A DNA stretch of 53,388 nt from NCBI GenBank assembly GCA_023231475.1, contig JALJEE010000499.1, positions 1 to 53,388 on the forward strand, written 5' to 3'. Both the position numbers and the translations under genes were made by a program. Position 1 is the stretch's first letter. Every line of letters starts with the position of its first letter. The notes beneath the pieces were generated by a model. That model did not search any database, was not told the origin of the DNA, and saw nothing but the letters and a program-made list of their open reading frames with translations. Positions 3,515 through 45,218 of the stretch are shown here, piece by piece. The DNA comes from Seison nebaliae. Its lineage: Eukaryota.

Positions 3515-4771
3515 TTACATCATCGTTGCAAAAACAGGATTATGTCGACAGATTGATGGACCATGTTCTTCATAATCAGCACGTGTTTTACACGCTTGAT
3601 GGAATTCAGGTGTACTCGCCACATAACTCCCTCCAAACCAAACGGCATATCTCTGCATTGGATGTGTAACAACATTTAATTCGATCGGTTGTGGTTTCGT
3701 TCCTGTAATTTTCTCTGTTTCATTTAATCGTTCGTCTACGACTCTCTTCAAATCTTTTTTCAATCTTCTGTCGAAATCTTTGAACATTGTCGATCCTCCT
3801 GATAGAACAATATTTTTGTACAATCCACGACGGACATCGATTGGTGAATTTTGAATAACATCGTCGACCGTTTCCGAAATTGATTTACGAAAATTTGCAT
3901 TAACAAATTCTGGATGGAAAAATATTTCAGGTCCGAGAAATCGTTCGTGACCGATTTCCACATTAAACTTCCGTTTATTAATTGCATGAATTCCAGTGAA
4001 GGTTTTAATGTAACGATTTGAATCGTTTTCATATTTCTCGAATTCACGTGCAATATCTGGACAAACATAACAATATTGTTCTTTGATGGTTTTTGCCGTT
4101 TCTAATGATTGTTCAGGTGGCATTCGATGTGAATCGTCGACAACAAATTGTTCTCGTTCTCGAAGAAGTTGTTGAATGAAATATGTAATATCTCGTCCTG
4201 ATATTGGAATATGTTTGATACAACTACCAATGACATATCCTTCAGCTACTGGAATGACATGAGTGACACCATCACCTGAATCAATAACAACTCCTGTTAA
4301 ACTTTTTCCAACGTTCTGATTCGATGTACTCATTGGAGCAGCTAATGCTAATACTGCTTGAACGGCAATATAAAGTTTAGGCACGTTAAATAACTCGAAG
4401 AAAATTTCTGCTGTTAATTCTCGATTTTCTGGTGTATTCAACGGAGGTTCCGTCAATAAGAATGGATGATCTTCTGGTTCGACTCGTAAATATTTGAAAA
4501 TACTTTGCTCCCACAACTTCTCCATCTGATCCCAATTCTCTACCAGACCATGACGTATGGGCCATTTCTTACTGTAACCGGTGGCGTTCAAAGCTTCGTC
4601 GCCAATAAAAAAATCGAGATCTTCAAAACGACTCGTTATTTTGGATGAAGTAAATTGTTCTCGAATTGCAATCGAACTGGGAATAATGAATTGGGGGTGA
4701 ATATTACCAGCGAATCCCATTTTGGTGTAACCAGTTCCATTATCGATAACACAAGCTGGATAATGATCCAT
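3515..4771 (-). CDS. ACTR3: Actin-related protein 3 (Arp2/3 complex), intronless
   Basis: [48 protein letters not shown]-terminal [15 protein letters not shown]. Confidence 0.98.
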
Positions 4772-5398: not shown

Positions 5399-7976
5399 CT
5401 ACATTGACAATGTACTTCGACTGGTAGCTGTTGATCGATTATTTGTTGTTGTTCGATTGTTTACCGTTGGTCGATTAGAATTATTCTCTAATATACTGTT
5501 GTTGTTATTGAGAGTAATGTTTTGAATGGCTTCGCGAATGTCACTTGTACTGGAACTATTATGAATTGGAAGAATGGTTGCCGTCGTTATTTGAGAAGAA
5601 AGTGTGGATGTAGTATTTGTTTGAGCTCGATTAATAGCGACAAGTGATGATCTAAGATTGGAGAAATGTCGATTATTTGTTGATAATGTTGAATTGTTCG
5701 ATTGATTATTTGGTGTAGAATTACCAGCTGTCATTTGATTATTATCTCCGATATGTCCTCGAATTGGAACTGGTTTTTTCACTCTCTCTTGTTCTCGTCC
5801 ATAAATGATGAAATCTCTCACATTCTTCAATCCCGATAGAACACACACCGATAAAGCTGAACGATAAAGATTCATGTTTGATGCATCATACCATTCGCCG
5901 GTGTCATCATCGTAACATTCAACATTATGAATTGTCGTAACTCCATTGAATCCACCGATGGCAAACATCAAATCATCCAACACTTCAACTGCGAAATTTG
6001 ATCGTGGATTATACATCTCATTAATAGGTCTCCAACTATTCGTTTCTGGTGCATATCGTTCTCCCGAATTCATTCTCGTTATTCCATTAAAACCACCAAT
6101 TGCATACAACTTACCACGATAAGCAGTAACACCCACACCAGATCGACGATTTCGCATATGAGAAATTAAAGTCCATTGTTTCGATTTACCATCATAATAT
6201 TCGGCCGAGTCCAAACATTCTTGTCCGTTGAATCCTCCACAAATATAAATACGATCTTTTAATGTGGCTGCAGACGCATCACTTCGTTGTGCATGCATGG
6301 GTGCACCCATTGACCATTGATTGGTGGTGGGTGAATAAATTTCTGTAGAATTTTGACGAACATGTCCATCAAATCCTCCCATTGCAAAAATCTTATCATC
6401 TAATATGGCTATACTGACATAACATCTGGAGAATGATATGAATAATTTGAATAATTTAAAATATTTCAAACCTTCTGAAATTCATAGGTGCAACATCAGA
6501 CCATTCTTTCGTCACCGGATCGAATTTACGACAAGAATTAAAATAATCTACTCCGTCAAATCCACCGATAATGTAAATTTTGTCATTCAATGTTACACTG
6601 CCATGATAAGCACGAGGACTACTATCGCTATGGTTTAATCGAATCCATTTATCCGTTCGAGTGTCATACATTTCAACGACGGATGTTGGACTACCACCAC
6701 TCCATCCTCCTACCACAAAAAGAATTTCATGTGGAATTCTCGGTTTCGTTATCGGATCCATCATATCGATATCCTGAAGAGAATGAATAAAATAAAGAAT
6801 TTGAAAAAGAAATAACCATATTACTGTCGAGATCTAATTCATATAAATATCTCAAAGTTTCAATAATTAATGGTTTGCATTGTTCCTGTTCTTTGATATA
6901 TGGATGTCCTTTCAAATCTTTTATAAAGAATTGTGTTGACAATAATCCTAATCGAACACATTGAATCAATCGAACAATTTCCTGTTCGAAGTTCATGAAA
7001 ATATTCAAAAATTTTATTTTGCTTAGAAGAATTTCTAACAATTTTTCGGGTATCCGGATCCCGATCAATCCAATTCATTACCGAATGATAAACAATTTCT
7101 TCAGTTCTAACATTTAAATCGTCACATGTGATTATTTCACTAAACTCTTCAACATTCAACATGGTCAACTCGTTGCTTTTATCGAAACAGTGTTGATAGT
7201 TCTTCCTGTGAGTTTTGAAGGAATTTTTAACATGATACTTAATTGAAAATGAAACATTAAATAAATATGAGATTCATCATACAGTTCTTGCCAGAAATAA
7301 TCTTTTGCAAATTTTCTTATTCCAATAACATTTTCAGCGGACAAATGTTCTAATAAGAAATCGGTACATTGCTTAATTAATCCGTCGATTTGAAATCGGT
7401 CAATAGCCAACATCAACCGTTCGATGTTATGCGTGTTAATCAATGCCTTTCTTGAGTATGCCCAATCTAGAAATGGATTTTGAAATTTGAGAATATAATA
7501 TATATATTTAATTTATTATTTAACCTAAAATACATGCAAGTGAATCTTCATCTACTTCATCCAATTGAACTATCTGATTTGTAGTTTTGGTTAGACCGTT
7601 GGTGAATAAAGCACGAAAATATGGACTACATGCTACAAAAGATGATTTGGAAAATTAATTTTGATTTTTCTTCAAACAAACGATTACCTGCTAACACAAT
7701 TCGGTGGACTGGGAAATCTTTATTTGAATCTAATTTTAAAGTGCAGTCACAAAGTAAATTCTGTCGTCGAAGATCAACAAGAATGTTATATGTATTAGCG
7801 CTCAATTGACGTTCGACGCGTCGATCATCGTTCTTACCACAACGAGGACAGAATTCTTTTCGAGGATTAGTTATAAACGATGACATACTATTTAGTCTCT
7901 CATTAATCTTTCCATCATTCTCTCCCTCGTCAATGGGCATATCCTTTGAACGTTCCCAATTAGATGTGAGGGACAT
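5399..7976 (-). CDS. KLHL10: Kelch-like protein 10-like (BTB-BACK-Kelch), 7 exons, with an N/S/T-rich C-terminal tail
   Basis: BTB (LCDCTL, FPVHRIVLA-ACSPYFRALF), BACK, PRIPHEILFVVGGWSGGSPT and PRAYHG as in KLHL10, six GG kelch repeats; six introns restore the frame. Confidence 0.85.
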
Positions 7977-11726: not shown

Positions 11727-12227
11727 ATGGTTGATGCGAACACGAAAAAATTGTTATCGGGAATTCCCGTTTGTCGAACGAATGCTGGACCGCGTGACCC
11801 TAATTGGTCATCTCGTCTTAAAGAAGAATTCACAGCACTCATCGAATATGTGAAAAGGAATAAAGTTGCTGATAATGATTGGTTCAAATTGTCATCGGAT
11901 GAAACCGGATTCCGTTGGAATGGTAAATGTTGGTATGTACATACGGATATGAGGAAATATGAATTTGATGTTGAATTTGAAATTCCTGTGACATTTCCTA
12001 AATGTGCTCCTGAAATCGTCTTACCCGAATTAGATGGGAAAACAATGAAAATGTATCGAGGTGGTCGTATTTGTCTCACTGATCATTTCAAACCGTTATG
12101 GTCGAGAAATGTACCGAAATTTGGTATTGCACATGCCATGGCCTTAGGCTTAGCTCCATGGTTAGCGGTTGAGATTCCTGATCTCATCGAGAAAGGATTG
12201 GTGATTCATAAAGAAGATAAAAAATAA
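11727..12227 (+). CDS. UFC1: Ubiquitin-fold modifier-conjugating enzyme 1, intronless
   Basis: [57 protein letters not shown]. Confidence 0.98.
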
Positions 12228-15086: not shown

Positions 15087-18000
15087 ATGTTATCAATGTT
15101 CCCATATGTGAGAGATGCAAAAACGTTTTTGAAAGAAGTCAAACAATTGACAGTAACATCAGAACAGTTAATTTTATTTTGAAATTCCAAGAACGATTCA
15201 ATTGATTAGACAAATTGAAATATTTGATATCCTCGATCGATATTCTTTCATTATTTGTGCTCGTATACCATTTCTGGAAATTAAATTGGAACATGATTCA
15301 GCATTTTATAGATTTTATGGTGTACACAAAGTTCCACTCGTCGATCTCATATTAGTTAATGTTTTTAGCATGATTTAATTTGAGATTGATGATTAGATGT
15401 TGAGATCGTGTGATCGAGACAATTGGATATTCCGAAGAGAATCGACAAAGTTGGTGAAAATTCAAAATGAAAGAGTTGAATGTCTCATTGACGCTAATCA
15501 AAAGAGATGTTATTTTGAATCAATGGATAAGAGATTTTTGGAACATATTCGAAATGATCCATTATCTTATGCCACTTTCCATCAATTGTTCAGTGGCAAT
15601 AATGAATTCAGTCGAGCTTATTTGAAATTTTTCCGTTTATTAGAAACACCTTTATATCAATTTCGATTATTATATAATTGTTATTGTTTTGTTAAATGGA
15701 AAGAGGAATATATTAAATCTGATTATTATCTCCAATTGTCTGGAAAGAATGTTTTCAATCTCATGTTCCAAACTCGGAAATTGGAGAACATTTCCCATTG
15801 GAAAGATTTAGAAAACATTTTAAAAAGTTCCATTCTACCAATTCGCATTTATATTCATCGAGCATGTATCAAAAAGGACGATGAGAAAAGTTTAAATAAT
15901 TTCTTCAATTCACTTTTTGTGGGAGGAAAACAGAAAGAAGTATATTCCCAATTATCGTCAACAAAAGAAGGAATTGAAATGAAAAAGAATTTATTGAGAT
16001 TTTCAAGAAAAGTTTCTGGAAGAATTTTTTGTAAAAAATCTTATATTTCTCTACTTTTCCTTCGGAATCGATCGAGATTGAAAAGAGTTCCCACTAATTT
16101 CCTTTATCGACCATCTCAACAAATTTTCAAACTCTATTCAAAAATTGCTCTCAAATTATTTCCTTCCAATATTTTCAATCGATCAAATTTAAATAATTTA
16201 TTGAAATTAATGAACATTTTAATCTGTTTCGATGGGAGTCGATTGTGGAGATATGGGAAATTATTAGAAATGATCGATGTTTCCAATATCAATTCGAAGA
16301 AGAAGAAGAAGAAGAAGAATGAGAATTGTGAGACGTTGATGAAATTAATCATCGCTGTGGATTTATCTTGGAAATTGTTAACGAAATATTTTTATATTAC
16401 CGAAACTTCGGTAAACGCAAATAAATTATTTTTCATTTATCGATCGCATTGGAGAGAAATGGTGAATTCGAAACAATTTGAAAATTATATTAGTAAAAGT
16501 TGTCAAAGAATAGAGGAAAGAACTGGTGGTGGTGGAGGTGATGGATATGGTAAGAAATCTTCCTGTCGAATATTACCAAAATTAGCGATGAATAGATGTT
16601 TTTATAAATTTATTGGATTTCGATTAATCAATTCTTGGTCGAAAGAAGAAAAAGAGAAAAATAAGAGAATATTAACTTGTCTCAAATATGTGATGGAGAC
16701 GTTAGATGAAGAGAAGAAGAGAATGTTCAAAGGAGTTGGATTAGAAGGAATAAATAAGATCAATGACACATTAACAAAGTGGAAAGAGAAGAATAAAAAC
16801 GGAATGAATTTTTGTGTTTTAGCTGATATTACTCAATGTTTCGATAATATCATCTTATCTAAATTATTGGACGGATTAGAAGTGATGATACCAGATCGTG
16901 TTCAATTAATTATTCAAAATATCAATTCTTGTACTCTCTCTAAAAACAATTCATATCGAACTTTCTATCATGTGAATGAGAGAAAGAATTGGAAGAAACG
17001 GAAATTGAGTGATTCGATGAATGAGAATATTAGACCAAATAAAAAATTTCGAAATAATGAAGAGAAATCAATGGAGAAATTCGAAAGAAAACCAATTGAT
17101 CAATTGTCAATTATACGACGACAATCCAAATTAGAATTGTGGACGAAAGATAATTTATTGAATGAATTACGTTCACTCTTCTTCAATTCACAATTCCTGT
17201 TGAACAATAAGATTTATAAGAGAATAATCGGATTATCTCATTCCAATTGTCTTTCCCCACTTCTCACCAGAATTTATTTGGGAATGTCGGAAGTGAAACT
17301 AAATTGGTCGAACAACATTCGTCACATCGATAACGATCGATTATTCTTTACCGTTCGATATGTGGATGATTACATATTCTTCTTCAACAACAAATCAGAT
17401 GCTGTTCGACATGTTCATTTATTAAAAAATGGTTCGTTTCTTCTTTTTTTTAAACATTTATTCATTCATTCCATTAGAAATGAAAGAATTTAATATAAAA
17501 TTCAATTTAGCAAAAGTGAAAAAGAATTTTGATGAAACAAATAACGGAAGTTAATTAACTAAATGATTTAGAAAAAGTAAAATATTTGATAGAGCCTGAT
17601 AAAACATTGAAATGGTGTGGAAATATTATGGATCCGTCACTCAATTTGATACCTTCGTCAATGAAAATTTTATGTTTAGGTATGACAAAAAAATTTACAT
17701 ATGATTTGACATATTCGTCGATCATTCTAATTATTCTTCTTTAGATGAAATGTTATTTCAAAGGAAAAATTTTGATATAAAATTGAAAGAATTAATACAA
17801 GAAAAGTTCCATTTGTTTATGTTCATCGAATCATCATTATGAAAATTTCAGGTTTTTCAAACAATTGAAATGTGTGGAGAAATTGTATAAGAATAAAGTT
17901 TTGTTCATTTCAACTTATTAATAATTGATTTATTATTTATTTTAGAATAGTTATAGTTCGAAAGGAATCCTCCTTTATATCTGCAGATCATTCGCTACAC

Positions 18001-18596
18001 TCTTCAAATCCTTCGAAAATTTGTTGAGAAAGATTCCTAAAGGAATTCGTCATCATATTATTTATCGGAATAAGAATATCGTTTTTGGTTTGTTATTCTT
18101 CTCAATAACATCTCCAAAACTTTCGTTGAAGATATTTTCATTTCGAATTTTCCTTATCCTCATAAATTCAGACATTTCAATAAACATGTCCAATTTATTT
18201 TATCAAGTTATAATTATTTTTATTCGAATTATTCATTCCAATTCTCAGAGAATTCACGTTGTCGAACTTATGAAGAAACGGTGAATTTCAATCGGATAAA
18301 ATATCTCATCACTCCAATGATTCGAAGGTTCCACCATTTCCAAAAAAACAACTAAATTTCATTTATAATATAGTTCATTGATTATTTTGCTGTTGTATTT
18401 GACAAGGAAAGAAAACGAATTATTTTCTGCATGTCGCAAACAATGTGATAAATATTATAAGAAATTGATGAAAAATAAAGTTTCATTTTCATTAATCTTT
18501 CTCATAAAACCGATTATTTAATAGTTCATCAAAGACGAAATGTTAAATGGATTACATGATTCCATAATTATGGATATAAAAAATTTTTTGAAATAG
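15087..18596 (+). CDS. TERT: Telomerase reverse transcriptase (divergent), about 12 exons
   Basis: TEN/GQ-like YYLQLSG; T motif YFYITETS...LFFIYRSHW; motif 1 CRILPK; motif 2 FRLI; A ADITQCFDNI; B' GLSHSNCLSPLL; C RYVDDYIFF; D FNIKFNLAKV; E KWCG. The terminal exons chain in frame through short introns to TAG at 18594-18596, but are less certain than the core. Confidence 0.9.
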
Positions 18597-18722
18597 TTTC
18601 ATATTTTTATTTGGATTTCGATAGAAAGAAAATTTTAATTCAAATAAATTATTTAAATAAGAAGTCTAAGTGAAATGGGCATGAAATGAGATGAGAAAAG
18701 ACATGATAAGAATTATTATGAA

Positions 18723-21700
18723 ATGTTATTTCGATTAACGAGGAGAGTGGTAGGAAGATGTGGTCAATCCATTTATTCCTTCCACACATCAGGAATTGAC
18801 CGAAATCAATTAGCTCTTCAGGAATTGTCGAAAATTTTGGAGGTAGTCTCAATTGACAGTGGAAAATTTAGTCATTTAAAAGAGAAAGTTCGAAGAAAGG
18901 AAGATGGATTGAAATTAATTGTAAATAATTTGAACGAGAAGAAATTAATTGAAAGAAGACGACGAATTAATGAAGATATTTTAGCGAAAGTCGATGCATA
19001 TCTTTTCACATGTCAACGAGAGAAGATTGTGGAGATGTTAGAGAATGAATTGACAAATAAGAGGAATGGTCATCAACGACAATTGAGTTCGATTTATGTT
19101 GTTAATTATATTTTAACTCAAATGTTTCACGAGAAGGAAATCAAACGATATCAGATCGAGAAGATTATGAATTTGTGTCAGAAGAAATTGGCTTATTCGT
19201 TGAATACTCATTTACTTCTATTAGGAATCGAATGTCGATTGAGAAATGGAAATGAAATGATAAATGAAGAGAATGATGAATTGATCAATTTATATAAGAA
19301 TTTGAGGAAAGAAATTTATAAATATTTTTATCGAAATGATCGAAATCAATATTTATCAATCAATATCGATCATTGGCAAATGGAGACATTTGATAAACGA
19401 CTTTTTCTCTTATTGACAAGAGATAATGAAATTCGTTATCAATTGAAACGATGTGATAAATTATATCGGAAATATTGTGACGATCGAAATATTTATGGTT
19501 CTCTCAATCATATGAGTCTTATGAGTCTATTGGAAAAATTATCGAGAAATCAAGAAAGAATGAAAGGAACTCAATTAATTAATCGTCGAAATTTAGAATC
19601 TCATGAATCATTTCATCTTTTCAAACTTCAATTAGAAAGAGAATTATCATTATCAGTTCGTATTCCTTCAATTTCCGTTGAGGAAATTCATATGAGAAAT
19701 AAACGGAAATTGAAGAAGAAGAAATGGAAAATGAAGATGGATGATGATATGAATGTGAAAGATGAATTGAAAAAGAATTATTATAAACAAAAATTGAAAT
19801 TGTTGTTGATGAGAAAATTCGAGAAATTGAGAAGTCGACGAAATGATGACGATAATGTCTGGTTTCAATTGATGCCAATGCAGAAATATATCGATATGTT
19901 ACTCAATTTTTATATAGAGCAATTATGTTTGGGAGGAAAGGGATCGAGTGAGAGTGAAGAATTTGTTAATACTAATCAATTATCTCATCGCTTGGGTGTG
20001 ACTTTATATCAACAATATTATCAACATCGTCTACCAAATCGTCAATTACAATTGTTATATATGAATTATTTGAATCGAATGAAAAATGATAATCATATTA
20101 ATGGTCGTCAATTATGGTCGTCTCTATTGAACGAAGACGATTTGTCGTTGAATAATTATAAGAAATTGTCACTACTCCCAATTTGGTCATATCGTTTAAC
20201 ATCGAGATTAGGACGGAAATTATTCAATTTAATTTTCTTCATTAATCCAAATGATGAATATGAATTATTGGAAAAGAAGAAAAAGAAAGGAAAAGATGAA
20301 AAATTACCAGCACTCTTATATGGAATTTATCGATTGGAAAGTCAATTGAAAAAAGGAATGAGAAAAGAAGAGAAGAAATCGAATGAAAAAGATTGTCCGC
20401 CCCAAATTTGTGTACCTGACTTTTGGAAAGAAGTTTTCAATGAAACTCATTATTTATCATTTCCAGCTGCTCATCTTCCTATGATTATTCCACCAATTCC
20501 ATGGCATGAAGGTAATCGTGGTGGTGGATTGTTGTTGGGACAAACGAATAAATTAGTTCGAATTGCTCATTCGGCTGATGAGAGTTCATTAATTCAAACT
20601 TCCATTTCATCATATCGACCATTCTCGACGATATTCGATTCGCTCAATATTCTCAGTTCATGTCAATGGAAAATTAATGAATTCGTTTTAGATATTGCCA
20701 TCAAAATGTTTCAATGTGGAATATCATCAGAAGCGTTGGGTCTTCCTAAATCGCCCAACGAATTCCTCCAAAACATTTCCACACCATCACCACCAAATCT
20801 CTCCAATTTCACCCCATTGGAATATATGGAAGAATTGAAGAAATGGAAAGAGAAATATGTGAGGATTTTAAAGAAACAGAAAGAAATGAAAAAAATAAAA
20901 AACGAACAATATTCATTGTGGTGTATGACTTGGTATCAATTATCGATTGCTAATTATTTTCGTACGAATATTATTTGGTTACCACATAATTTGGATTTCC
21001 GTGGTCGAGTATATCCATTACCACCACATTTCTCTCATATGGGATGTGATTTAGTACGAAGTTTATTGAATTTTCATGAAAAAAAGAAATTGGGAGAAAC
21101 TGGTCTCGATTGGTTAAAGATTCATTTGACAAATTTAACTGGTCATTTGAAAAAAGCGACATTAATCGAACGAAAAGAATATGCAGAATTGAATATTTCA
21201 AAAATTATTTTGTCAGCAGAAAATCCGTTAAATGAATCATGGTGGATGAATAGCGATGATCCATGGCAAACATTGGCATGTTGTAAAGAGTTGATGGAAG
21301 CAATGAAATGTGATGATCCCAAAGAATTTTTGTCTTCCTTACCAATCCATCAAGATGGTAGTTGTAACGGTTTACAACATTATGCCGCATTAGGTCGAGA
21401 TATTGATGGTGCACGATCAGTGAATGTTTTAGGTAGTGGACGTCCACAAGACGTTTATTCTGATGTTGTTGATCGTCTTTTATCACTCATCAAAAAAGAC
21501 GATAGTCAATTAGCGAATTTGACGAGGAAAATTATTACAAGAAAAACCATCAAACAAACGGTAATGACGACGGTTTATGGTGTAACTCCATTTGGTGCTC
21601 GCAAACAAATTAGTAAACAATTGAGATTGAATCCAATAATAATTGAGAATAGTGAAAATAATGAATTGATTCCACAATTGGCATTATTTTTACAGACTCA

Positions 21701-22301
21701 AACATTCCGTTCTCTTAGAGAAATGTTCACATCGACAAGATCCATCCAAAATTGGTTAGTATCGTGTGCGAAAGATATCGTTAAATTGAGAAATGAACCT
21801 GTAAAATGGATTACTCCTTTAGGTCTTCCTGTTGTTCAACCATATTTCATAAAGAGAACAGAACGAATCAATTCAGATAATTATCTCAAGGATAAATTCT
21901 CATCATCATCTCGACCGATAATGAGGAAACAATTGAATGCATTCGCACCTAATTTCGTCCATTCTCTCGATTCAACTCATATGATGTTAACTGCATTATC
22001 GTGTGGAAAGGAAAATATTAGATTTGTATCGATTCATGACAGTTTTTGGACACATGCCATCGATATCGATCAAATGGGAAAGATATGTCGAGAGGAATTC
22101 TTACGATTACATTCTTCTGACATATTAGAAGATTTATCGAAACAATTTATTTCTAATTATTCTTTCCGTCAAAATGAATTTAAAAATTCTCCTTTAATGA
22201 CTGAAGAAATGAATCGTTTCAATCGACTCATTCAACAAATTCCGAAAAAGGGACAACTTAATATAAATGACGTTCTCGATTCACTCTACTTCTTCTCATA
22301 A
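18723..22301 (+). CDS. POLRMT: Mitochondrial DNA-directed RNA polymerase (T7-like single subunit), intronless
   Basis: Arg-rich presequence-like start; LPHNLDFRGRVYP, PIHQDGSCNGLQHYAAL, RKTIKQTVMTTVYG, PNFVHSLDSTHM, IHDSFWTH, terminal YFFS. Confidence 0.97.
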   Translation: MLFRLTRRVVGRCGQSIYSFHTSGIDRNQLALQELSKILEVVSIDSGKFSHLKEKVRRKEDGLKLIVNNLNEKKLIERRRRINEDILAKVDAYLFTCQREKIVEMLENELTNKRNGHQRQLSSIYVVNYILTQMFHEKEIKRYQIEKIMNLCQKKLAYSLNTHLLLLGIECRLRNGNEMINEENDELINLYKNLRKEIYKYFYRNDRNQYLSINIDHWQMETFDKRLFLLLTRDNEIRYQLKRCDKLYRKYCDDRNIYGSLNHMSLMSLLEKLSRNQERMKGTQLINRRNLESHESFHLFKLQLERELSLSVRIPSISVEEIHMRNKRKLKKKKWKMKMDDDMNVKDELKKNYYKQKLKLLLMRKFEKLRSRRNDDDNVWFQLMPMQKYIDMLLNFYIEQLCLGGKGSSESEEFVNTNQLSHRLGVTLYQQYYQHRLPNRQLQLLYMNYLNRMKNDNHINGRQLWSSLLNEDDLSLNNYKKLSLLPIWSYRLTSRLGRKLFNLIFFINPNDEYELLEKKKKKGKDEKLPALLYGIYRLESQLKKGMRKEEKKSNEKDCPPQICVPDFWKEVFNETHYLSFPAAHLPMIIPPIPWHEGNRGGGLLLGQTNKLVRIAHSADESSLIQTSISSYRPFSTIFDSLNILSSCQWKINEFVLDIAIKMFQCGISSEALGLPKSPNEFLQNISTPSPPNLSNFTPLEYMEELKKWKEKYVRILKKQKEMKKIKNEQYSLWCMTWYQLSIANYFRTNIIWLPHNLDFRGRVYPLPPHFSHMGCDLVRSLLNFHEKKKLGETGLDWLKIHLTNLTGHLKKATLIERKEYAELNISKIILSAENPLNESWWMNSDDPWQTLACCKELMEAMKCDDPKEFLSSLPIHQDGSCNGLQHYAALGRDIDGARSVNVLGSGRPQDVYSDVVDRLLSLIKKDDSQLANLTRKIITRKTIKQTVMTTVYGVTPFGARKQISKQLRLNPIIIENSENNELIPQLALFLQTQTFRSLREMFTSTRSIQNWLVSCAKDIVKLRNEPVKWITPLGLPVVQPYFIKRTERINSDNYLKDKFSSSSRPIMRKQLNAFAPNFVHSLDSTHMMLTALSCGKENIRFVSIHDSFWTHAIDIDQMGKICREEFLRLHSSDILEDLSKQFISNYSFRQNEFKNSPLMTEEMNRFNRLIQQIPKKGQLNINDVLDSLYFFS

Positions 22302-25680: not shown

Positions 25681-28600
25681 TTATCTTAAACTTTTCCTGT
25701 GTTGATTTGTGGAGGAAATTAAACTTTTAATTTCATCAATTGCTGATATTTCGAACGTCGACATATTTACTTCTTCATTCGATAAGGACTCCGATTCAGA
25801 AGAAGCGGTTTTGTTATTATTGAAAAATCTCATATTTAATTCGGATCCAACCGTCTTCAATTTAAATTTCTATTTAAAATTAAATTTGTTATTTTCGAAT
25901 AAATCGAATAAAAAAACTTTTTTCACTTTCTCCCGTTTATGTTTCATATGCCACGAAAATTCGAGACATGCCATGATAAATCCAATTCCAATTCCAACAC
26001 AGAGAATCAGAAAAACTCCTCCAACATTCGCTAGACCTAAAGTTGTGGCATCATCGGTTTCACTCGTATCTTGAGAGATACATTTACCACCGCCTTTCTT
26101 CTTCTTCCACCATAAATTATAAAGTGATTGAATGTCTCCCATTTCTTGCATTTGTAATATACGATCGGAAAGTATATCTCTGAATGGTGAATCTATTTGG
26201 GATGAATATGAAATATTATTTGAAGAATAAAAGAAACTTGTTGGTGTTCCGATACCATATCCTTTCGACGCCAACAATCCTCCCACTTGAGTTAATTCGC
26301 AATCTCGTTGTATCATATAATTGATGGTTTTTGATTCCATAATAAATGCATATTTCCCTTCTTTAACTCGACGGAAACCTTCGCCATTACTTGGAACGAA
26401 ACAATCGGAACATTTCGCCATAAAATTATACATTCTTTCATACGTTGGTATTCGAGATTCCTTCGACGAATGAAATTATGAAATTTAAATAATAACAAAT
26501 AATTAATAACAATAAAAAATGATTGAGAAGATCCACCACGTAATGCTCCATATTTAATTTCAGTTTGTTTAGCTAAATCTTCCGCTCCCCGAATAGGCAA
26601 TTGCATTCGATTGGATGTGAGAAATGCGGCCAAATTTGCAGTATAAGATGAAACGATAATGAGACAGAAGAACCACCAGAAACCGCATAATAATCTCGTT
26701 GAGAATGCACGAATTGGAATTTCTGAACCTTGCTGCATAAAACAACCTAAATTGAACCAGAGAGCATTTAATAAAGTGATTTGATTTGTATCATCAATTT
26801 CTTCTGCTGAACAAGATTCAGGATTGTACCATTCGTAAGGAGAGAAACGAGCAATGATAAATAAACCAAAACTTATTCCTAAATATGCCGCCACAATATA
26901 TAACCAGATGTTGATAGAAAATGGTGATAAGAAGGAAAATAAATTTGAAGATTTCTTTTTACTTTTTTTAAAAAGAATTCCAATTCCAGATTCGAAAAAC
27001 GGTTTCGTAAAATCGATCACTTGTTCACGACTTAACGTTATGGTGAGATCACTTATGGCTAAATCAGCTTTCTAAAACAGATGAATTTCCGGGGAAATTA
27101 GAAAGTGAACGAACTCTTGTCATTAATTCGTGAATCATTCCATTCCAAACTTTTGGATTATTCTTCAACGGTTGTCCATGTTTTCCATCTTCAACTTGTT
27201 TAAATCGATAATTGAAAATGAAGTCATCTTTCTTCATTAATTCTTTTATTCTCAGAAATAAATCAACAGCAAATCCTTCAAATCGTTCATTATCTTTATA
27301 TTTATATGAATCATTCTTCAACATAATATATGGTTCAGTCTTGAAAATTTTCATAAAAATATCATAAAATTTCATTTATATTTAAATAATTATTAACAAG
27401 TTTCACTGACACAATCAATGTCATATTAGCCAAATACTCTTTTGTTATAATAACGTCTTCATTATAATTCCTTTCCAATAATACCGAATCTTTATTCACG
27501 GTTCCCAGTGAACGGAATTTCGAATATCTCAATTCCAAAACTTCGAATTCCACTTTCTTTAACGACATTCCACTTAATTTCCCATTAAAATTCTAAATTT
27601 AAATTACATTAAGAAATTAAATAAATAAATTAACGTTCATTTTAATCGTCTCCAGAAATCCATGGCCATATTTCCACGGTTTTAATTTGAGACAGGATAA
27701 TTTCTCGTCAAAACTAATTTGGGACTTGAGGACGATGTCCAACAAATAATTTCCCAGATCTAACAACAAAGAATGATTTAACTATTATGAAATAATTTAA
27801 CAATTCTAGATAATTTCATGAATATAACATATAACGAAAATGATGAAAATTTCTCAAATGTCGGAATTTTTGGATTATGTCCATTTCTTATATATTTCCC
27901 CATCGATTCCCCATACCATCGAACATAATTCGTATCGGAACGTTTCAATCTCAATACTGTTATATTTCCAATTGTATTATGGAAAGAATTCCAATTCATT
28001 GTGACAGAATCCTTTAAGAGAAATTTGTATTTTGAAAAGTTAAAAATTTCATTACTAAACTAAATTGACAATAAGATATTTTCGATAATTGTTGATTAAT
28101 TTACGTTTTAATGCCATTTCCATAATACTTCTCGTATTCTCATAATTGCAGTCGATGACTACCTGATTCTCCGTTGACTTCTCAATCAAATCAAATATGA
28201 AATCTTCATTCCCATTATATTCAAGACTGCTCAATATCGTTCCTTTTAGATCGATACGGAATGAGATCATTCGAGCAAATGAAACTGTATCATCAAAAAT
28301 ATAAAGAATTTCTTTCCATCGAAATTCTCTTAATAAGTTTTGCAGACTTTGTCTCACAACATCATATGATGGATATAAGGAAATGAAATAGTTCTGATCC
28401 AATACTAAATAATCAATATGGAAACAAGGAATATGGAAATTTTTGCAAATTGATGATAATTGAATTGCCGCTGGATTACCCACATTAGTTACGATTGCTG
28501 TGACACCTTTTGATAAGAGTTTACACACTAAAATGGAAATAAAAATTTGAAATATTTGTAAGAGAATCGAATGGTGAACTTGCACGATATGCTTTATATG

Positions 28601-28811
28601 CATTCCATGATTCAACATAATCGATAAAGAAAGAAATATTTTTAATTTTCGTGCTTGATTGATGTAATAATTTTGTTTGTTCATTCAATAAAGTTAGAGT
28701 ATAATCGATGGCATTCCGATCGTGAACATTATTTGATTTGAGTATAAATCCAATTTTGAATGAAAAGATCGGATTGATAATGAAGAGAATTAAAAGAAGA
28801 TACTTAATCAT
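25681..28811 (-). CDS. Ionotropic glutamate receptor, kainate/AMPA-like, multi-exon
   Basis: Signal peptide and ATD; RFEGFAVDL, WNGMIHEL, IDFTKPF, RFSPYEWYNP, M2 FMQQGS, M3 SYTANLAAFLT, LAKQTEIKYG, CELTQVGGLL, M4 LGLANVGGVF. Confidence 0.95.
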
Positions 28812-39395: not shown

Positions 39396-42300
39396 TTACA
39401 AATGTAAGAACATCGGTCGTCGATTAATGTCACGTCTGACTAATTCCCAAATTTCTCGATTATTCTTTTTAAGTTCGGAGAAAAGTTGTTTCAATAAATA
39501 TGATTGATGGAATTTTTCGAACATGTTCATCGTTTCATTTATCATGTTCATAATTCCAGTTGACATTGGAGATGTATAAGTGACTCCTTGATGATTGATA
39601 TTAATACTAAATTTATTCAAGAGATTAATACAACGACTGAACATGGATATCGTATAATTTGCGAGTGGAATTAAATTGATACATTTCAAATATGGTTTCA
39701 TTGTATTATCTACTGGTCGCATGAGATTGTTATTGATAACTCTCATTCGTTTCGTCCATGTCATTTGAACGGGAATCTTACCCGCCAAACGCAATGGACT
39801 TGTCCAATCGTTTTTCCTCAAATAATAATTCGGTTCTCGATGAACCATTTTATTGATGATGACAGGAACATCCAACAAGAAATGATGAGCATATTTCAAT
39901 TGAAATGTGTCATATCTATAAGACGATCCGTTGCCGAATTGTAAGACACAATAAGTGAGATTATTGAGAGAATAGGAAATATTTTTCAATATGAGTGGAT
40001 CGGTGATAGAAGTGCAAACGGTTTCGATAAACTCGTCAAATTCTTTATCTCCCAAAAAGAAAAGTAATTGAATTGTCCATTCAATACCATCGGTATGTTT
40101 TGAGAAATTGCCAGAATAACTAAGTAATTTAATAGCAAGTAAACATACTTGAAATGATCGATATACATTTCTCTTAATATCAGCATTGTCATCATCACCT
40201 TTCAATAATTCCGTTTCGTCCACTGGTTTCTTCACTAATTGCAATTGTTGATGAACATGAGAACTATTTGGTTGAAAGAATGGTCTGTTACACAGACAAC
40301 AATCAGCAGCTGGTATTTCATTCTTTCTCAACACTAATGAATGTTCACGAACTGCCAATGCCTCCACATAAATGTCACACCAAAGACGTGCAATTTCAAA
40401 AAGAATTTCTGTATCATGAAATCCGCCCGGATCGTCCACTGAACGGTCGATAACACAATCTCTAATATTTGCAAAAAGTATTGGAGTGGATTTGATTGAT
40501 TCATAATATTTCCTTGCCGAATTAACGAGGAGACGACATCCTTCATCTAAACATCGATCTCCACCATATTCTACACATTGATGTAATAATTGTTTCGTTA
40601 TAAAATTAGTTAATTCATGTCCTCGTGATAATCCTTCGAAAGCGAATGTTACTATCCATCTCTTCAATGGACGATCGGAATGAGTGAGGAAATCCGATAA
40701 TCTTCCCAATTCATCTGTCGACAAAATACTTCGCCAACATCTGAAAAAGAATTTCATCAAATTATCCGGCAACACTTCTAAAATCTTTGCAAGAAATTGA
40801 GTATAGTCATTGAAATCGCGATGGAGCCAAGCCTCTTTATAAATTCCATTATACACTCCCATAGCATATAAAGTGATAAGGAGAACGAATACGACGGAAA
40901 TACATGTGTCAGTTTTTGAACGACAATGTGGCGAATATTGTGATGAGGACCAACTGGGACCGAAATGTAAACCAATATAAGGCTCATAACATGATCCGAT
41001 TGAACCCAACAACGTCGTCGATACTGATAATAACCATTCGAAATACCAGAAATTAATATTATAACCATGGCGATGATAGAACATGTTGTATTTGGGACGA
41101 TAATCTGAATCATTCATCTTTTCAATTCTTTCCGTTAATCGTTGAGAAATAGTGAAAAATATTTTATAATTTTTCAAATATTTTTCAAATAATTTATTTT
41201 CTTTCTCTTCCGAACAAATCGATCGGAAATCATTCCCCTCATCCTTCAACATTATACAATTTTCTTTTGTTGTATTTATCATTTGTTGAGGTTCCATCGG
41301 ACAAGTCGGTATATATTTCACTGGAAATTCAGTTACTCTCAAATAAATATTTGTCGATTCAATTTTGTGAAGGAATGAAAGTCCATCAGATTCAATTGAT
41401 ATGTCACTTATCATAGGGAAATAATGATTATGAATTGTCGTTGTAAATTCGGAGGGAACTTTCGAAATTTCCATTAATGGATCATAATACGAAATATTCT
41501 CCATTTGTACTGGTTCGTTCGTTGTTTTTAAATAATTATATAATCGGAAATTTTCCGTTCTCCATCGAATATACGAAAAATCATATTCATTTGTCATCCG
41601 TCTAATTTTCAATCTAATCTCATCAGAATCTTCAATTAATTGTGGATAAGCCGAACACAAATAATTTGAACTTGTACATTGTTTTGATGGAGAACTCGAA
41701 TTTTCTAATCGTTCACTAGTGGCACAATTGACACATGTATTATAATCATCACCTAATCGATTAGATGGATTAATCGCCGATCTTTTTTCATTTATTCGAA
41801 ATGATTCAACTTCCGATTCAGCTTCCGTTGTAGTTTCTTGAGGTTCCGATGACAATATATTAATATTTTGATATAATCGATGTTTATGTTGTTCAATCAA
41901 TAATGATGATTTGAGACGTTTAGCGAAATATGTGTCAGGTGTCGTCGTCTCAACATCATCACTACCTGAATGTGTTGACGATCTCATTGGTGGTACAGGA
42001 ATTGATCGGAAAACTTTATCATTATTTTCCATCCGTTTCTTCATCATGATCGAATCGTAAACACAAGACAAATGTTTATCGATTACTTCAATTCCGTTTC
42101 GAGAGAAATGTTGAGGAAATTCCATCGACAATTCATCCGAATCTTCTCCCAAATCTTCACTCCATTCAAAATGGATAATTGGAAGAAATTGACACATCTC
42201 CTCTTGGAAATAACGACGGAGATTCTCCGTAAAAAAATATGCTAATCGATTACCTACATTATTACGAAGATTAAAATTATAAAATGGATCGATGTCCAAT

Positions 42301-45218
42301 GTCATGTAATCAGGAGATTCAAAAAATTTATGGAATCTTTCATCTAATAGACACCATAAAATATATTTACATTCACTAATTCTCTCATTTTTAGTGATGA
42401 TATTAGAAAGAATAATTCGTTGTCTCATTCGAATTATATGAATGAGAAAATGACCTTTCGATTCTTCCATGATCGTTGGCATTTTCAATACATTCCCAAT
42501 AAATTTAATGAAATTCACACCGTTCTTATCATAGACACCATGAAAAGAATTATATACCCACCATAACGTTTCACATAATGCCAATGGAGGAATAGTTTCT
42601 ATGGAAATTTTATTTGTACGAATTTGATGATGATTTAAAATATTCTCATAAATCCAATTTCCTTTCGATAACATTAACAAAATGATTTGATGAATATTCA
42701 AATTTTTTAAATAATCAAGTGGATTCTTTTTAATTATTCCACATAAAATTCCATTTAATTGAGTTTGAATCATCCAACATGATTGTTCAAGGAATGGTGG
42801 AAACATTCCCATTCGTGGATAAAGAAGACCAAATAAACATAAACGAGCTGCCATTAAATTATCTAAATCGAAAACTATTGTTGTTGTTACTAATAATTTT
42901 AATTCCTTCATTATAATTATTCCATCAAAATGATTATAATATGAATGGGATTTGGTTTTTGAAAAATAATAACGATCATCATTTTTGATTCTTCTCAAAT
43001 AAAATGATTTAATATCATCAGATAATATCATTTTATTATCCGTCAATTTCAATTTATCATCATAAAATTTCAAATAACATTCTCCAACAATCAAAGCGAG
43101 AATTGTAGATAAATAATGATCACCATTCACATCGAGTGATTTGATGTTACTCATTAGAAGTGGTAAAATGTCTTCATTCCTTCCACTCAATTCATTATCG
43201 ATTTGATCGATATAATTAATTATTCCTCTTCGACAATTCTCATAAAGTTTTTCCATATATATCGGAATTTTTCCACGTGAATTTAAAGTAACTCGATAAT
43301 TCGTTTTGATTGCTACGGAATCTTTCTGAAAAATATTATTGATCGATCGCCATTCTCGAATATTTTCATTCTCCAAACCGATCAATCCACCAAATCGATT
43401 ATATAATCTCTTGATGATGGGATGATTAGATGAATAAATATATTCTTGTGGTAATCGTAAGAGAAGTCGTACATGATGAAATCCGAAGAAATAATTATGA
43501 TTATTAATTAAATTCAATTTAAACGAAACAATTTGACGATCCAATTCCGTCAAAACATCTAACACAACATTGAACATCATCGAATGTGTTTTATCATAAT
43601 GAATGGAAAGTGGAAATTCTGGTTCATTAAATGTTCTCAATTGTTCGTGAATGAATGGAGAATGATAGACTTTTAACCATAATTCCTCCAACTCCTCGAA
43701 TAAATTCCATACCAATTGAATTCGATGAGTTAATATTGTCTCATTAATCGGTTTATCACATTTGTAAGTGTAGGAGGAATGCCAATCGGAAACGACATTT
43801 GGAAGATTGATGAGAATTAATGTGAAATAATAAAGAGAACGATAATCATAATGAATCTTTTTAATTATTTCAAAATTGATGACTTGAAAGAAACTGAAAA
43901 TTTGAGGTGGAATTGGTCGTTGATATGTCAATTCATTAATTTTTGCATCGAACGCTTTTCGAATGAAATAAGTTTTTTGATCAAAAAAATCGATCATCGA
44001 TTGATATTCGTCTTTGAAATGATCGAGGAAAACGATATGTCCCATCGAATTCGCTTCCTTCATCATTCGAACGAATGGATTCATTATTAATAAATCATCA
44101 TCTTTCATTCCTTTCATTTTCATTGCCGTTTTCAATAAACAATAACAACGACTCAATATATCAGCACTAATTAAACGTTCTTTCTCTTTTATCCATTCCA
44201 CATCAACATAATTGAAAAGTTTCACTTCTTCTTTCGGTTTTTCTATCACGTCAATCATTTTCATAACATCATAAACTTCTTTCAATTCAACTTTCTTCAA
44301 TAAATTCAATGCCACTCTTCTTAAATGTTCGTGTGACAAATCTTCGAAAACCATCGATAACGGTAAACGATATTCGATTTGATGTGGATAAAATAATCTT
44401 TTCCAGAACACTTGCATCACATGAAGACAACAATAATCTCGTGATATTTCTGAAATCATATCGGATTGTGATTGAATACCTAAAACTCCTTCAATCTCTC
44501 CTTCTTTTCCCAACGGTCTCTTATGTTTATTGACATTGGGATAGATCGATGATGATGGTGCTGATAATGAATTGTTCATTTCTTCATTCTGTGATGAACA
44601 CAATCCACAATTGAATGAAGTTATTCGTTTCTTTGAAAATTTAATAAAAACTGGTACGGGTAATTTATGATCTTCTTGATATAATCCTCCATTCGCCACC
44701 ATCGCATAAATCGTCGTACCGATTTGATAAATATCTTTCACACTACCACTATTCATTAATTTCTCGAGGTAATCGGGAGAGAATGTACGATTGAGAATAT
44801 GCGTATAAAGTGTTCGTTCCACTTTGCGGAAAATGAATGACATATCGGAAGGAAATGAATAAATTAAAATTCTTAATTGTAAAAAATCAGGTAATGTCGG
44901 CCATATATCCATCAATTGTTTCAGAGTGAACTTACTCGCCAATATCGTACAACATCGATCAACTAAACAATTTTCGATGAGGAATAATGGTTTCAACTTT
45001 TTAACTTTGAGTGGAACTGGAATCGATACCTTCTCATTTCCATCATCTTCATCATCTTTTTCATATTCACCGTTTAAATATTTGGATTTGGGAAGGAGAA
45101 GTTGACCATCCTTCCCATAAATCAAACGAATATTCCTCTCACTAACATATCTACCAACAGTCTCCCAATAAGATTTCAACCATACTACGCTATTCGGCGA
45201 CGTCGATTCAGATATCAT
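39396..45218 (-). CDS. Zinc finger SWIM domain protein, ZSWIM4/5/6-like, intronless, 1940 aa
   Basis: BC-box/Cul-box-like LVDRCCTILA...LPDFLQLRILIYSFP; SWIM-like ITSFNCGLC...CCLHV followed by YRLPLS; TEILFEIAR. Confidence 0.78.
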   Translation of the reverse strand: MISESTSPNSVVWLKSYWETVGRYVSERNIRLIYGKDGQLLLPKSKYLNGEYEKDDEDDGNEKVSIPVPLKVKKLKPLFLIENCLVDRCCTILASKFTLKQLMDIWPTLPDFLQLRILIYSFPSDMSFIFRKVERTLYTHILNRTFSPDYLEKLMNSGSVKDIYQIGTTIYAMVANGGLYQEDHKLPVPVFIKFSKKRITSFNCGLCSSQNEEMNNSLSAPSSSIYPNVNKHKRPLGKEGEIEGVLGIQSQSDMISEISRDYCCLHVMQVFWKRLFYPHQIEYRLPLSMVFEDLSHEHLRRVALNLLKKVELKEVYDVMKMIDVIEKPKEEVKLFNYVDVEWIKEKERLISADILSRCYCLLKTAMKMKGMKDDDLLIMNPFVRMMKEANSMGHIVFLDHFKDEYQSMIDFFDQKTYFIRKAFDAKINELTYQRPIPPQIFSFFQVINFEIIKKIHYDYRSLYYFTLILINLPNVVSDWHSSYTYKCDKPINETILTHRIQLVWNLFEELEELWLKVYHSPFIHEQLRTFNEPEFPLSIHYDKTHSMMFNVVLDVLTELDRQIVSFKLNLINNHNYFFGFHHVRLLLRLPQEYIYSSNHPIIKRLYNRFGGLIGLENENIREWRSINNIFQKDSVAIKTNYRVTLNSRGKIPIYMEKLYENCRRGIINYIDQIDNELSGRNEDILPLLMSNIKSLDVNGDHYLSTILALIVGECYLKFYDDKLKLTDNKMILSDDIKSFYLRRIKNDDRYYFSKTKSHSYYNHFDGIIIMKELKLLVTTTIVFDLDNLMAARLCLFGLLYPRMGMFPPFLEQSCWMIQTQLNGILCGIIKKNPLDYLKNLNIHQIILLMLSKGNWIYENILNHHQIRTNKISIETIPPLALCETLWWVYNSFHGVYDKNGVNFIKFIGNVLKMPTIMEESKGHFLIHIIRMRQRIILSNIITKNERISECKYILWCLLDERFHKFFESPDYMTLDIDPFYNFNLRNNVGNRLAYFFTENLRRYFQEEMCQFLPIIHFEWSEDLGEDSDELSMEFPQHFSRNGIEVIDKHLSCVYDSIMMKKRMENNDKVFRSIPVPPMRSSTHSGSDDVETTTPDTYFAKRLKSSLLIEQHKHRLYQNINILSSEPQETTTEAESEVESFRINEKRSAINPSNRLGDDYNTCVNCATSERLENSSSPSKQCTSSNYLCSAYPQLIEDSDEIRLKIRRMTNEYDFSYIRWRTENFRLYNYLKTTNEPVQMENISYYDPLMEISKVPSEFTTTIHNHYFPMISDISIESDGLSFLHKIESTNIYLRVTEFPVKYIPTCPMEPQQMINTTKENCIMLKDEGNDFRSICSEEKENKLFEKYLKNYKIFFTISQRLTERIEKMNDSDYRPKYNMFYHRHGYNINFWYFEWLLSVSTTLLGSIGSCYEPYIGLHFGPSWSSSQYSPHCRSKTDTCISVVFVLLITLYAMGVYNGIYKEAWLHRDFNDYTQFLAKILEVLPDNLMKFFFRCWRSILSTDELGRLSDFLTHSDRPLKRWIVTFAFEGLSRGHELTNFITKQLLHQCVEYGGDRCLDEGCRLLVNSARKYYESIKSTPILFANIRDCVIDRSVDDPGGFHDTEILFEIARLWCDIYVEALAVREHSLVLRKNEIPAADCCLCNRPFFQPNSSHVHQQLQLVKKPVDETELLKGDDDNADIKRNVYRSFQVCLLAIKLLSYSGNFSKHTDGIEWTIQLLFFLGDKEFDEFIETVCTSITDPLILKNISYSLNNLTYCVLQFGNGSSYRYDTFQLKYAHHFLLDVPVIINKMVHREPNYYLRKNDWTSPLRLAGKIPVQMTWTKRMRVINNNLMRPVDNTMKPYLKCINLIPLANYTISMFSRCINLLNKFSININHQGVTYTSPMSTGIMNMINETMNMFEKFHQSYLLKQLFSELKKNNREIWELVRRDINRRPMFLHL

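What the first reader, a model, noticed from the sequence alone, without database searches (positions are those of the whole stretch)
17230..17265. TERT motif B' has lost the near-invariant Gln-Gly (GLSHSNCLSPLL versus GIPQGSxLS)
Seen: all three catalytic Asp (motif A D, motif C DD), the T motif and WCG are intact and the ORF is uninterrupted, yet PQG reads SHS. Known: the motif B' Gln (HIV RT Q151 equivalent) contacts the incoming dNTP, and QG is conserved across TERTs and most RTs. Motif A also has F where many TERTs have Y at the steric-gate position. Inference: altered nucleotide handling or processivity, possibly tied to an unusual telomere repeat, or a weakened enzyme.
Basis: partly seen in the sequence, partly recalled or inferred. 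Interest (0 to 1): 0.7.

Follow-up and report, generated by a model that had tools for sequence, protein, structure and literature searches.

The report
Telomerase with a rewritten nucleotide pocket
In Seison, a tiny marine relative of rotifers, the telomerase gene is intact and keeps its three catalytic residues, but two active-site residues present in every other telomerase compared here are replaced, which likely leaves a working but slower enzyme with a reshaped pocket for the incoming nucleotide and the template base.

Summary
The gene is the TERT of Seison nebaliae (SNEBB_009640, 999 aa, 12 annotated exons). Motif B' reads G-L-S-H-S-N-C-L-S-P and aligns without gaps, so human Q833/G834 are H690/S691. 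All 137 other TERTs compared keep QG. It is not a read error: at least five base changes separate it from PQGS, and contigs of five runs agree (contigs only, possibly one DNA pool). The gene is constrained: a stop-free 678-codon exon, all catalytic residues kept, and dN/dS about 0.2 against a rarer, roughly 15% divergent sequence type (192 nt, not covering B'). Of 22 structurally defined active-site positions, four carry residues seen in no other TERT: Q833 (nucleoside contact) and G834, V634, M636 (template-base pocket). The fingers hairpin probably also has a 9-residue insertion. Best reading: an active, probably slower telomerase with a co-remodelled nucleoside/template pocket; Tribolium Q308A stays active at about 11% efficiency. 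The link to an unusual telomere repeat is untested. No rotifer or acanthocephalan TERT was retrieved, so the age of the change is unknown. Verdict: a new variant of a known enzyme, moderate interest.

The parts
15087..18596 (+). TERT gene, annotated as SNEBB_009640 / KAI3388459.1, Seison nebaliae, 999 aa, 12 exons (exon edges approximate to a few bases; the 3' exons rest on the annotation only)
   Evidence: record; exon mapping; profile of other TERTs E 5e-45 over aa 314-792; fold
15397..17431 (+). Main exon, 678 codons without a stop: possible TEN remnant, TRBD, T motif, RT motifs 1, 2, A, IFD, B', C
   Evidence: the other two frames hold 49 and 53 stops
16126..16467 (+). TRBD (aa 319-432)
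   Evidence: Pfam PF12009 E 8.5e-5, 23.1 bits, under the cut-off of 25; K. lactis TRBD 7sbe Z 12.2 over aa 210-440
16384..16410 (+). T motif (F407 Y408 T410 E411 = human F561 Y562 T564 E565)
16567..16638 (+). Fingers hairpin: motif 1 (R466, P469, K470), probable 9-residue insertion, motif 2 (R484, I486) with unique N487 (V634) and W489 (M636). R475 is an alternative register without insertion.
   Evidence: K-to-R spacing 14, against 5 in 132 of 137 and 4-7 in all others; two long strands 462-474 and 477-488 in the model; the HMM alignment puts the Arg at R475 instead
16813..16845 (+). Motif A: catalytic D552 (16825), C556, steric-gate F557 (16840), D558
   Evidence: F in 64 of 137 others
17230..17265 (+). 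Motif B' with H690 (17239-41) for Q833 and S691 (17242-44) for G834; G687, S695 and L698 kept; T699 just downstream replaces near-invariant C842
17356..17370 (+). Motif C: R729, Y730, V731, catalytic D732 and D733
17477..17548 (+). Exon with motif D (N763, K766 = human N899, K902)
17595..17678 (+). Exon with motif E (W785 C786 G787 at 17613-17621)

Best explanation
This is the intact telomerase reverse transcriptase gene of Seison nebaliae, in which motif B' Gln-Gly is replaced by His-Ser, and it likely encodes an active but probably slower telomerase whose nucleoside- and template-base pocket has been remodelled as a unit. Shown: TERT sequence and predicted fold; the three catalytic Asp, the fingers Arg/Lys and the motif D Asn/Lys are kept; residues seen in no other TERT occupy Q833, G834, V634 and M636. 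Inferred: His690 takes over part of the Gln role (packing on the incoming deoxynucleoside, contact with the motif 2 Arg). Also inferred: the side chain added at the Gly position is accommodated by the neighbouring changes in the fingers strand (N487, W489, longer hairpin), so that templated dNTP addition still runs, at some cost in rate. Whether fidelity or repeat processivity changed is not known.
For: (a) Identity: a profile of 137 other TERTs scores E 5e-45; the top 18 Foldseek and top 18 VIA-align rows are all TERT structures, best Z 20.4, rmsd 7.3, 712 aligned, to human 7trd (the model was built from a TERT alignment, so this is partly circular). (b) Of the 9 RT-domain positions invariant in all others, Seison keeps 7 and differs only at the adjacent Q833/G834. 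(c) Of 22 active-site positions in Table 1a of PMC7274783, 10 are as in human, 8 carry a residue seen in other TERTs, and 4 are unique: one nucleoside-binding and three template-binding. All 3 catalytic, 6 triphosphate-binding and 2 primer-binding positions are human-like or seen elsewhere. (d) Constraint: low-depth contigs (2-3.4x against 13-30x) differ at 29 places in 192 assessed bases, pS 0.36 against pN 0.10, dN/dS about 0.22, Fisher p 2e-4, no stop; D552, F557 and D558 are unchanged in the contig over motif A. A neutral exon of this length would carry about 9 stops at only 5% divergence. (e) Precedent: Tribolium Q308A is active, kpol 0.30 against 1.05 per s, 8.7-fold lower efficiency. 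(f) G to TCC-Ser needs two base changes and the four codons need at least five, which points to stepwise fixation.
Against: No activity, expression, telomerase RNA or telomere repeat is known or was found here. The selection estimate covers 192 bases outside motif B' and rests on low-depth contigs whose identity as a second lineage is inferred; constraint on the protein does not prove catalysis. I found no experimental or natural precedent for replacing the Gly. The protein is very divergent overall (at most 28% identity to any other TERT in the RT region; 14 of 40 columns conserved at 95% differ, similar to 13 of 40 in Babesia), and the excess of changes in B' is not significant (5 of 9 against 9 of 31, p 0.23), so drift in a fast lineage may explain much. 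The motif 2 register is ambiguous, which affects the V634/M636 assignments. The comparison set is dominated by vertebrates and fungi, 119 of the 137 came from a word search with one sponge TERT (top 120 of 232 hits listed), which favours canonical sequences, and no named row is a rotifer, acanthocephalan, flatworm or insect TERT.
Confidence: 0.66

Rival explanations
1. The pocket change is functional novelty: the enzyme reads its template less strictly or differently (as DGR RTs do, where the same Gln position is Ile/Val/Leu) and makes degenerate or unusual telomeric repeats.
For: In the Bordetella DGR RT the residue at this position promotes misincorporation (PMC7826257). All four unique active-site changes face the nucleoside or template base. 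Telomeric repeats are unknown in Acanthocephala, the sister group, where FISH probes failed (PMC10288976).
Against: In HIV RT, Q151N lowers misincorporation, so the direction cannot be predicted. Repeat sequence is set by the RNA template (established knowledge). TERTs of yeasts, ciliates and beetles, with different repeats, keep QG. No repeat data for Seison.
Confidence: 0.13
2. The enzyme is catalytically dead or nearly so, and the protein is kept for a structural or non-canonical role while ends are maintained otherwise (retroelements, recombination).
For: Loss of a Gly that is invariant in 137 of 137 TERTs could block the template-base pocket. TERT was reported as not found in the bdelloid Adineta vaga, and telomere-associated retroelements occur there (PMC5405514; I recall an earlier report of bdelloid TERT, which I could not read).
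Against: All three Asp, R622, K626, R631, R865, N899, K902 and WCG are kept on a branch long enough to leave at most 28% identity; motif A is constrained against the second sequence type. Dead polymerases usually lose the Asp first (general knowledge).
Confidence: 0.11
3. Relaxed selection: the gene is decaying and HS is one of its early lesions.
For: High overall divergence; other near-invariant residues are lost too (G479, C842, F883, P929); the species has lost many genes (PMC12256650).
Against: dN/dS about 0.15 in the three stretches outside the IFD (123 nt) and 0.22 overall, no stops or frameshifts; splice-compatible exons for motifs D and E.
Confidence: 0.05
4. A second, canonical TERT does the work and this copy is a diverged paralogue.
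For: Not excluded: no genome was held.
Against: No second Seison protein among the listed hits of four searches (one search lists 120 of 232). In the listed pieces, no long contig at full depth and 80% or more likeness lies on the gene apart from the gene itself (the table is cut). The published assembly has 0.3% duplicated BUSCO genes.
Confidence: 0.04
5. Sequencing or assembly error.
For: Only contigs, no raw reads; X2-X5 are one sample and may be the source, and X1 shows the same low-depth variants, so it may not be independent.
Against: At least five substitutions in four adjacent in-frame codons, no indel, no PQG in other frames; five runs at 13-30x agree.
Confidence: 0.01

Closest known systems
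Canonical TERT (human 7TRD/9SHZ, Tetrahymena 7LMA, Tribolium 6USR, yeast Est2 9SWN)
   Same: TRBD with T motif, RT with IFD, motifs 1, 2, A, C, D, E, catalytic triad; predicted fold matches along the whole length.
   Different: QG to HS in motif B' (0 of 137 others), S835 to N, C842 to T, V634 to N, M636 to W, probable 9-residue longer fingers hairpin; at most 28% identity in the RT region.
Tribolium TERT Q308A laboratory mutant (PMC7274783)
   Same: Lacks the motif B' Gln; stays active at about 11% efficiency.
   Different: Ala rather than His, Gly kept, no compensating changes; single-turnover data only.
DGR reverse transcriptases ([I/V/L]GxxxSQ in place of QGxxxSP; PMC7826257)
   Same: Natural RT family with the motif B' Gln replaced, and a shown effect of that position on misincorporation.
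   Different: Keep the Gly, hydrophobic residue instead of His, SQ ending (Seison has SP), bacterial, no TRBD or T motif.
Penelope-like element RTs (sister group of TERT; PMC8557442)
   Same: Related RT; endonuclease-less forms act at telomeres in bdelloids. An unnamed 120-aa fragment (P0015), Penelope-like by my recall of the motif, has Met for Gln.
   Different: That fragment keeps the Gly; PLEs have no T motif or TRBD, and the Seison protein has both.

Membership tests
TERT | T motif (distinguishes TERT from other RTs, PMC5405514) | tested here: met
   F407 Y408 T410 E411 align to human F561 Y562 T564 E565
TERT | TRBD upstream of the RT domain | tested here: met
   PF12009 E 8.5e-5, under the curated cut-off; TERT profile matches from aa 314; 7sbe Z 12.2
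TERT | Catalytic triad (motif A Asp, motif C Asp-Asp) and motifs 1, 2, D, E | tested here: met
   D552, D732, D733, R466, K470, R484 (or R475), N763, K766, WCG
TERT | Insertion in fingers domain between motifs A and B' | tested here: met
   138 residues from D552 to H690, against 121 from D712 to Q833 in human
TERT | Motif B' consensus Gln-Gly (a consensus character shared with most RTs, not the diagnostic of the family) | tested here: not met
   H690 S691; 137 of 137 others QG; G830, S838, L841 of the motif are kept. This is why it is filed as a variant.
TERT | TEN domain and C-terminal extension | tested here: inconclusive
   Only a 0.1-bit profile match at aa 165-214; model pLDDT 30-80 at both ends; structural alignment spans 1-999; the terminal exons rest on annotation
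TERT | Adds telomeric repeats using an integral RNA template | not testable with these tools
   No assay; no Rfam match in the window; repeat unknown
DGR reverse transcriptase | [I/V/L]GxxxSQ motif | tested here: not met
   H-S-N-C-L-S-P against the motif given
Penelope-like element RT | RT without T motif/TRBD, with or without GIY-YIG endonuclease, in a repeated element | tested here: not met
   T motif and TRBD present; no GIY-YIG hit in Pfam; intron-containing gene among housekeeping genes

The most novel reading that the evidence does not exclude
The first natural telomerase lacking the motif B' Gln-Gly, with a rebuilt template-base pocket that changes how the template is read (lower or base-specific fidelity, as in DGR RTs) and yields degenerate or non-standard telomeric repeats, possibly shared with acanthocephalans, whose telomere repeat has resisted detection.
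Probability: 0.13. Interest if true: 0.8.

Novelty: new variant of a known kind. Interest (0 to 1): 0.48.

Why it matters
Gln-Gly of motif B' is treated as a fixed part of the telomerase active site. A natural, constrained TERT without it shows that the pocket can be rebuilt and names candidate compensating positions (V634, M636, fingers hairpin) that can be tested in Tribolium or human TERT, where kinetics and structures exist. It also gives a handle on telomere biology in Syndermata, where the repeat is unknown for acanthocephalans and TERT was reported as not found in a bdelloid. If the enzyme behaves normally, it is a curiosity of a fast-evolving lineage.

Tried and rejected
No whole genome was held, so a genome-wide search for a second TERT and for telomeric repeats was not possible. 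No RNA holder listed; X6 and X7 laid nothing. No contig of the rarer sequence type covers motif B' in X1-X3 (depth in bin 17186-17312 equals the main contig) or in X2, X4, X5, so its B' residues are unknown. A single-sequence AlphaFold model was unusable (pLDDT 34). A profile word search returned only one further TERT and 15 bacterial-type RTs. No named rotifer or acanthocephalan TERT was retrieved. No doubled copy of nine common telomere units lies in the window, and the tandem-repeat list shows no telomere-like array; the window is gene-rich and not expected to be terminal. Rfam gave 0 matches. The steric-gate Phe was rejected as a peculiarity. Significant clustering of changes in B' was tested and not shown (p 0.23). 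[quoted passage not shown] Figures and subscription papers were not searchable, so absence from print is not proven. I recall that yeast Q632A gives short but stable telomeres; one search found no such text in its 10 listed papers, so it is not used as evidence. Three papers were not held. Earlier findings of the scan: nothing.

Full report
Observation. Window 17230-17265 (+) encodes GLSHSNCLSPLL, inside the frame 15397-17493. The only hit of a search with residues 230-690 among 7360 candidates was this gene's own record, SNEBB_009640 of Seison nebaliae, 999 aa. That protein maps to 12 exons between 15087 and 18593. The long exon ends at about 17431, just after motif C, and most of motif D and all of motif E lie in the next two exons, so 'uninterrupted ORF' holds for the main exon only.

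It is a TERT. Pfam gives RVT_1 E 1.9e-10 and Telomerase_RBD E 8.5e-5, the latter under the cut-off. All 16 other hits of the whole-library HMMER search are RT-family proteins: those with names are TERTs or unnamed eukaryotic proteins with TERT motifs, and one is a 120-aa fragment of another RT type. The Atlas feature search ranks TERT clusters first at 0.97-0.98. A profile of the other TERTs scores E 5e-45 over aa 314-792. An AlphaFold model from a 126-row alignment (pLDDT 65 overall, 84-87 over aa 681-710) matches TERT structures in the top 18 rows of both searches, best Z 20.4, rmsd 7.3, 712 aligned; this is partly circular, as the alignment was of TERTs.

How unusual. Of 157 proteins held at that point I dropped 19 (the window's own partial copy, three fragments that are not TERT or lack B', and 15 bacterial-type RTs) and aligned 138. 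Motif B' aligns without gaps: S689/H690/S691/N692 stand for human P832/Q833/G834/S835. Q and G are present in 137 of 137 others, 44 of 44 at under 60% identity and 19 of 19 at under 40%. They include divergent TERTs of Babesia, Vairimorpha, Panagrolaimus, Strigamia and molluscs; Tetrahymena, Candida, Tribolium and yeast keep them too. The set is biased: mostly vertebrates and fungi, 119 rows from a word search with a sponge TERT (120 of 232 hits listed), and no named rotifer, acanthocephalan, flatworm or insect row. The steric-gate Phe is ordinary: 64 of 137, and 35 of 44 after thinning.

Not an error. Going from PQGS to the observed codons needs at least 1+1+2+1 base changes, and no other frame holds PQG. 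Contigs of X1, X2, X3 cover 16332-18700 and those of X2, X4, X5 cover 17120-17720 with 0 differences at 13-30x. These are contigs, not raw reads; X2-X5 are one sample and may be the source, and X1 shows the same rare variants, so independence is limited.

Selection. The same runs hold short contigs at 2-3.4x that differ by about 15%. A published account of this species describes two lineages with 82% identical mitogenomes and a 14-fold depth difference (PMC8351084, first part of Results read), which fits such a rarer type; the assignment is my inference. The table lists 29 differences, apparently those 30 or more bases from the aligned ends, out of about 75 counted for these pieces. In the 192 central bases 18 of 29 are at third positions; 14 of 26 changed codons are synonymous; pS 0.36, pN 0.10, dN/dS about 0.22 (p 2e-4), 0.15 outside the IFD; no stop. 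The contig over motif A leaves D552, F557 and D558 unchanged. None reaches motif B'. Random change at 5% of sites would put about 9 stops into the 678-codon exon (1 of 2000 trials had none).

Where the changes lie. Of 12 columns invariant in all others, Seison keeps 9; within the RT domain it keeps 7 of 9 and differs only at Q833 and G834. At 95% conservation it differs at 14 of 40, like Babesia (13 of 40), so it is a fast lineage, and the excess in B' (5 of 9 against 9 of 31) is not significant (p 0.23). Against the 22 active-site positions tabulated from Tribolium structures (PMC7274783, supplement 1), 10 are as in human, 8 carry residues seen in other TERTs, and 4 are unique: Q833H (nucleoside binding) and G834S, V634N, M636W (templating-base binding). 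All catalytic, triphosphate- and primer-binding positions are ordinary. The motif 1 Lys to motif 2 Arg spacing is 14 against 4-7 in all 137 others, modelled as a longer hairpin. An Arg at 475 gives an alternative register without insertion (the HMM alignment uses it); that would change the 634/636 assignments and put Phe at the strongly conserved I633.

Mechanism. Known (passages and supplement tables of PMC7274783, passages of PMC9957172): Q308/Q833 coordinates the incoming nucleoside and hydrogen-bonds R194/R631; G309/G834 lines the pocket of the templating base; Q308A keeps activity with kpol 0.297 against 1.05 per s and 8.7-fold lower efficiency (the main text says about 60-fold for kpol, which its own numbers do not give). 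Inferred: His, similar in size and able to hydrogen-bond, fills much of the Gln role; Ser at the Gly position crowds the template pocket and is accommodated by the changes on the facing fingers strand. The result would be an active, probably slower telomerase (0.66). A change of fidelity is possible in either direction: the same position promotes misincorporation in the DGR RT, and Q151N lowers it in HIV RT (passages of PMC7826257). I give 0.13 to altered template reading with unusual repeats, 0.11 to a dead but retained protein, 0.05 to decay, 0.04 to a canonical paralogue, 0.01 to error.

Context. Telomeric repeats are unknown in Acanthocephala, sister to Seisonidea (passages of PMC10288976). 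Bdelloids have TGTGGG, and the Brachionus repeat is not known (passages of PMC7943196). One survey did not find TERT in Adineta vaga (passages of PMC5405514); I recall an earlier report of bdelloid TERT but could not read it. Seison has lost many conserved genes (passages of PMC12256650). Passages of PMC8557442, PMC6581908, PMC5855555 and PMC3846280 were seen and add only background or residue numbering; PMC7310846 has no occurrence of the terms. Alignment figures in these papers could not be seen and may hold other exceptions.

Verdict. A real and, in ten literature searches, unreported loss of a near-invariant active-site dipeptide in a constrained TERT, with further unique changes in the same pocket. 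A new variant of a known enzyme. Surprising to a telomerase enzymologist and directly testable in existing systems, but resting on one species and with no functional data. Interest 0.48.

Noticed in passing
window 18723-22301 (+): Single-frame 1192-aa phage-type (mitochondrial) RNA polymerase, PF00940 E 1.8e-145, starting about 130 bases after the annotated TERT stop.
   Followed up: partly
window 39396-45218 (-): 1940-aa single-frame ORF with only a weak ZSWIM4-8 C-terminal match (E 1.3e-4, under cut-off). Possibly a very divergent ZSWIM8/EBAX, which by my recall acts in microRNA degradation; Seison lacks 30 expected microRNA families.
   Followed up: no
window 3515-4771 (-), 11727-12227 (+), 46879-48333 (+): Single-frame actin-family (Arp3-like by my reading), UFC1 and zinc cation-efflux genes.
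   Followed up: partly
window 5399-7976 (-) and 25870-28684 (-): Pieces that read like a BTB-kelch protein and an ionotropic glutamate receptor (names from recalled motifs, not tested).
   Followed up: no
window 16296-16319 and about 16525-16540 (+): In-frame (GAA)8 giving a lysine run in the TRBD and a glycine run between the T motif and motif 1; contigs break at the first.
   Followed up: no
window 15502-15560, 15957-16070, 16602-16695, 16780-16875, 17036-17162: Low-depth contigs about 12-20% divergent in runs X1-X3, consistent with a second, rarer lineage in the sampled DNA.
   Followed up: partly
PMC7274783 main text against supplement 3: The text gives about 60-fold lower kpol for Q308A, while the table gives 0.297 against 1.05 per s and 8.7-fold lower efficiency.
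   Followed up: yes
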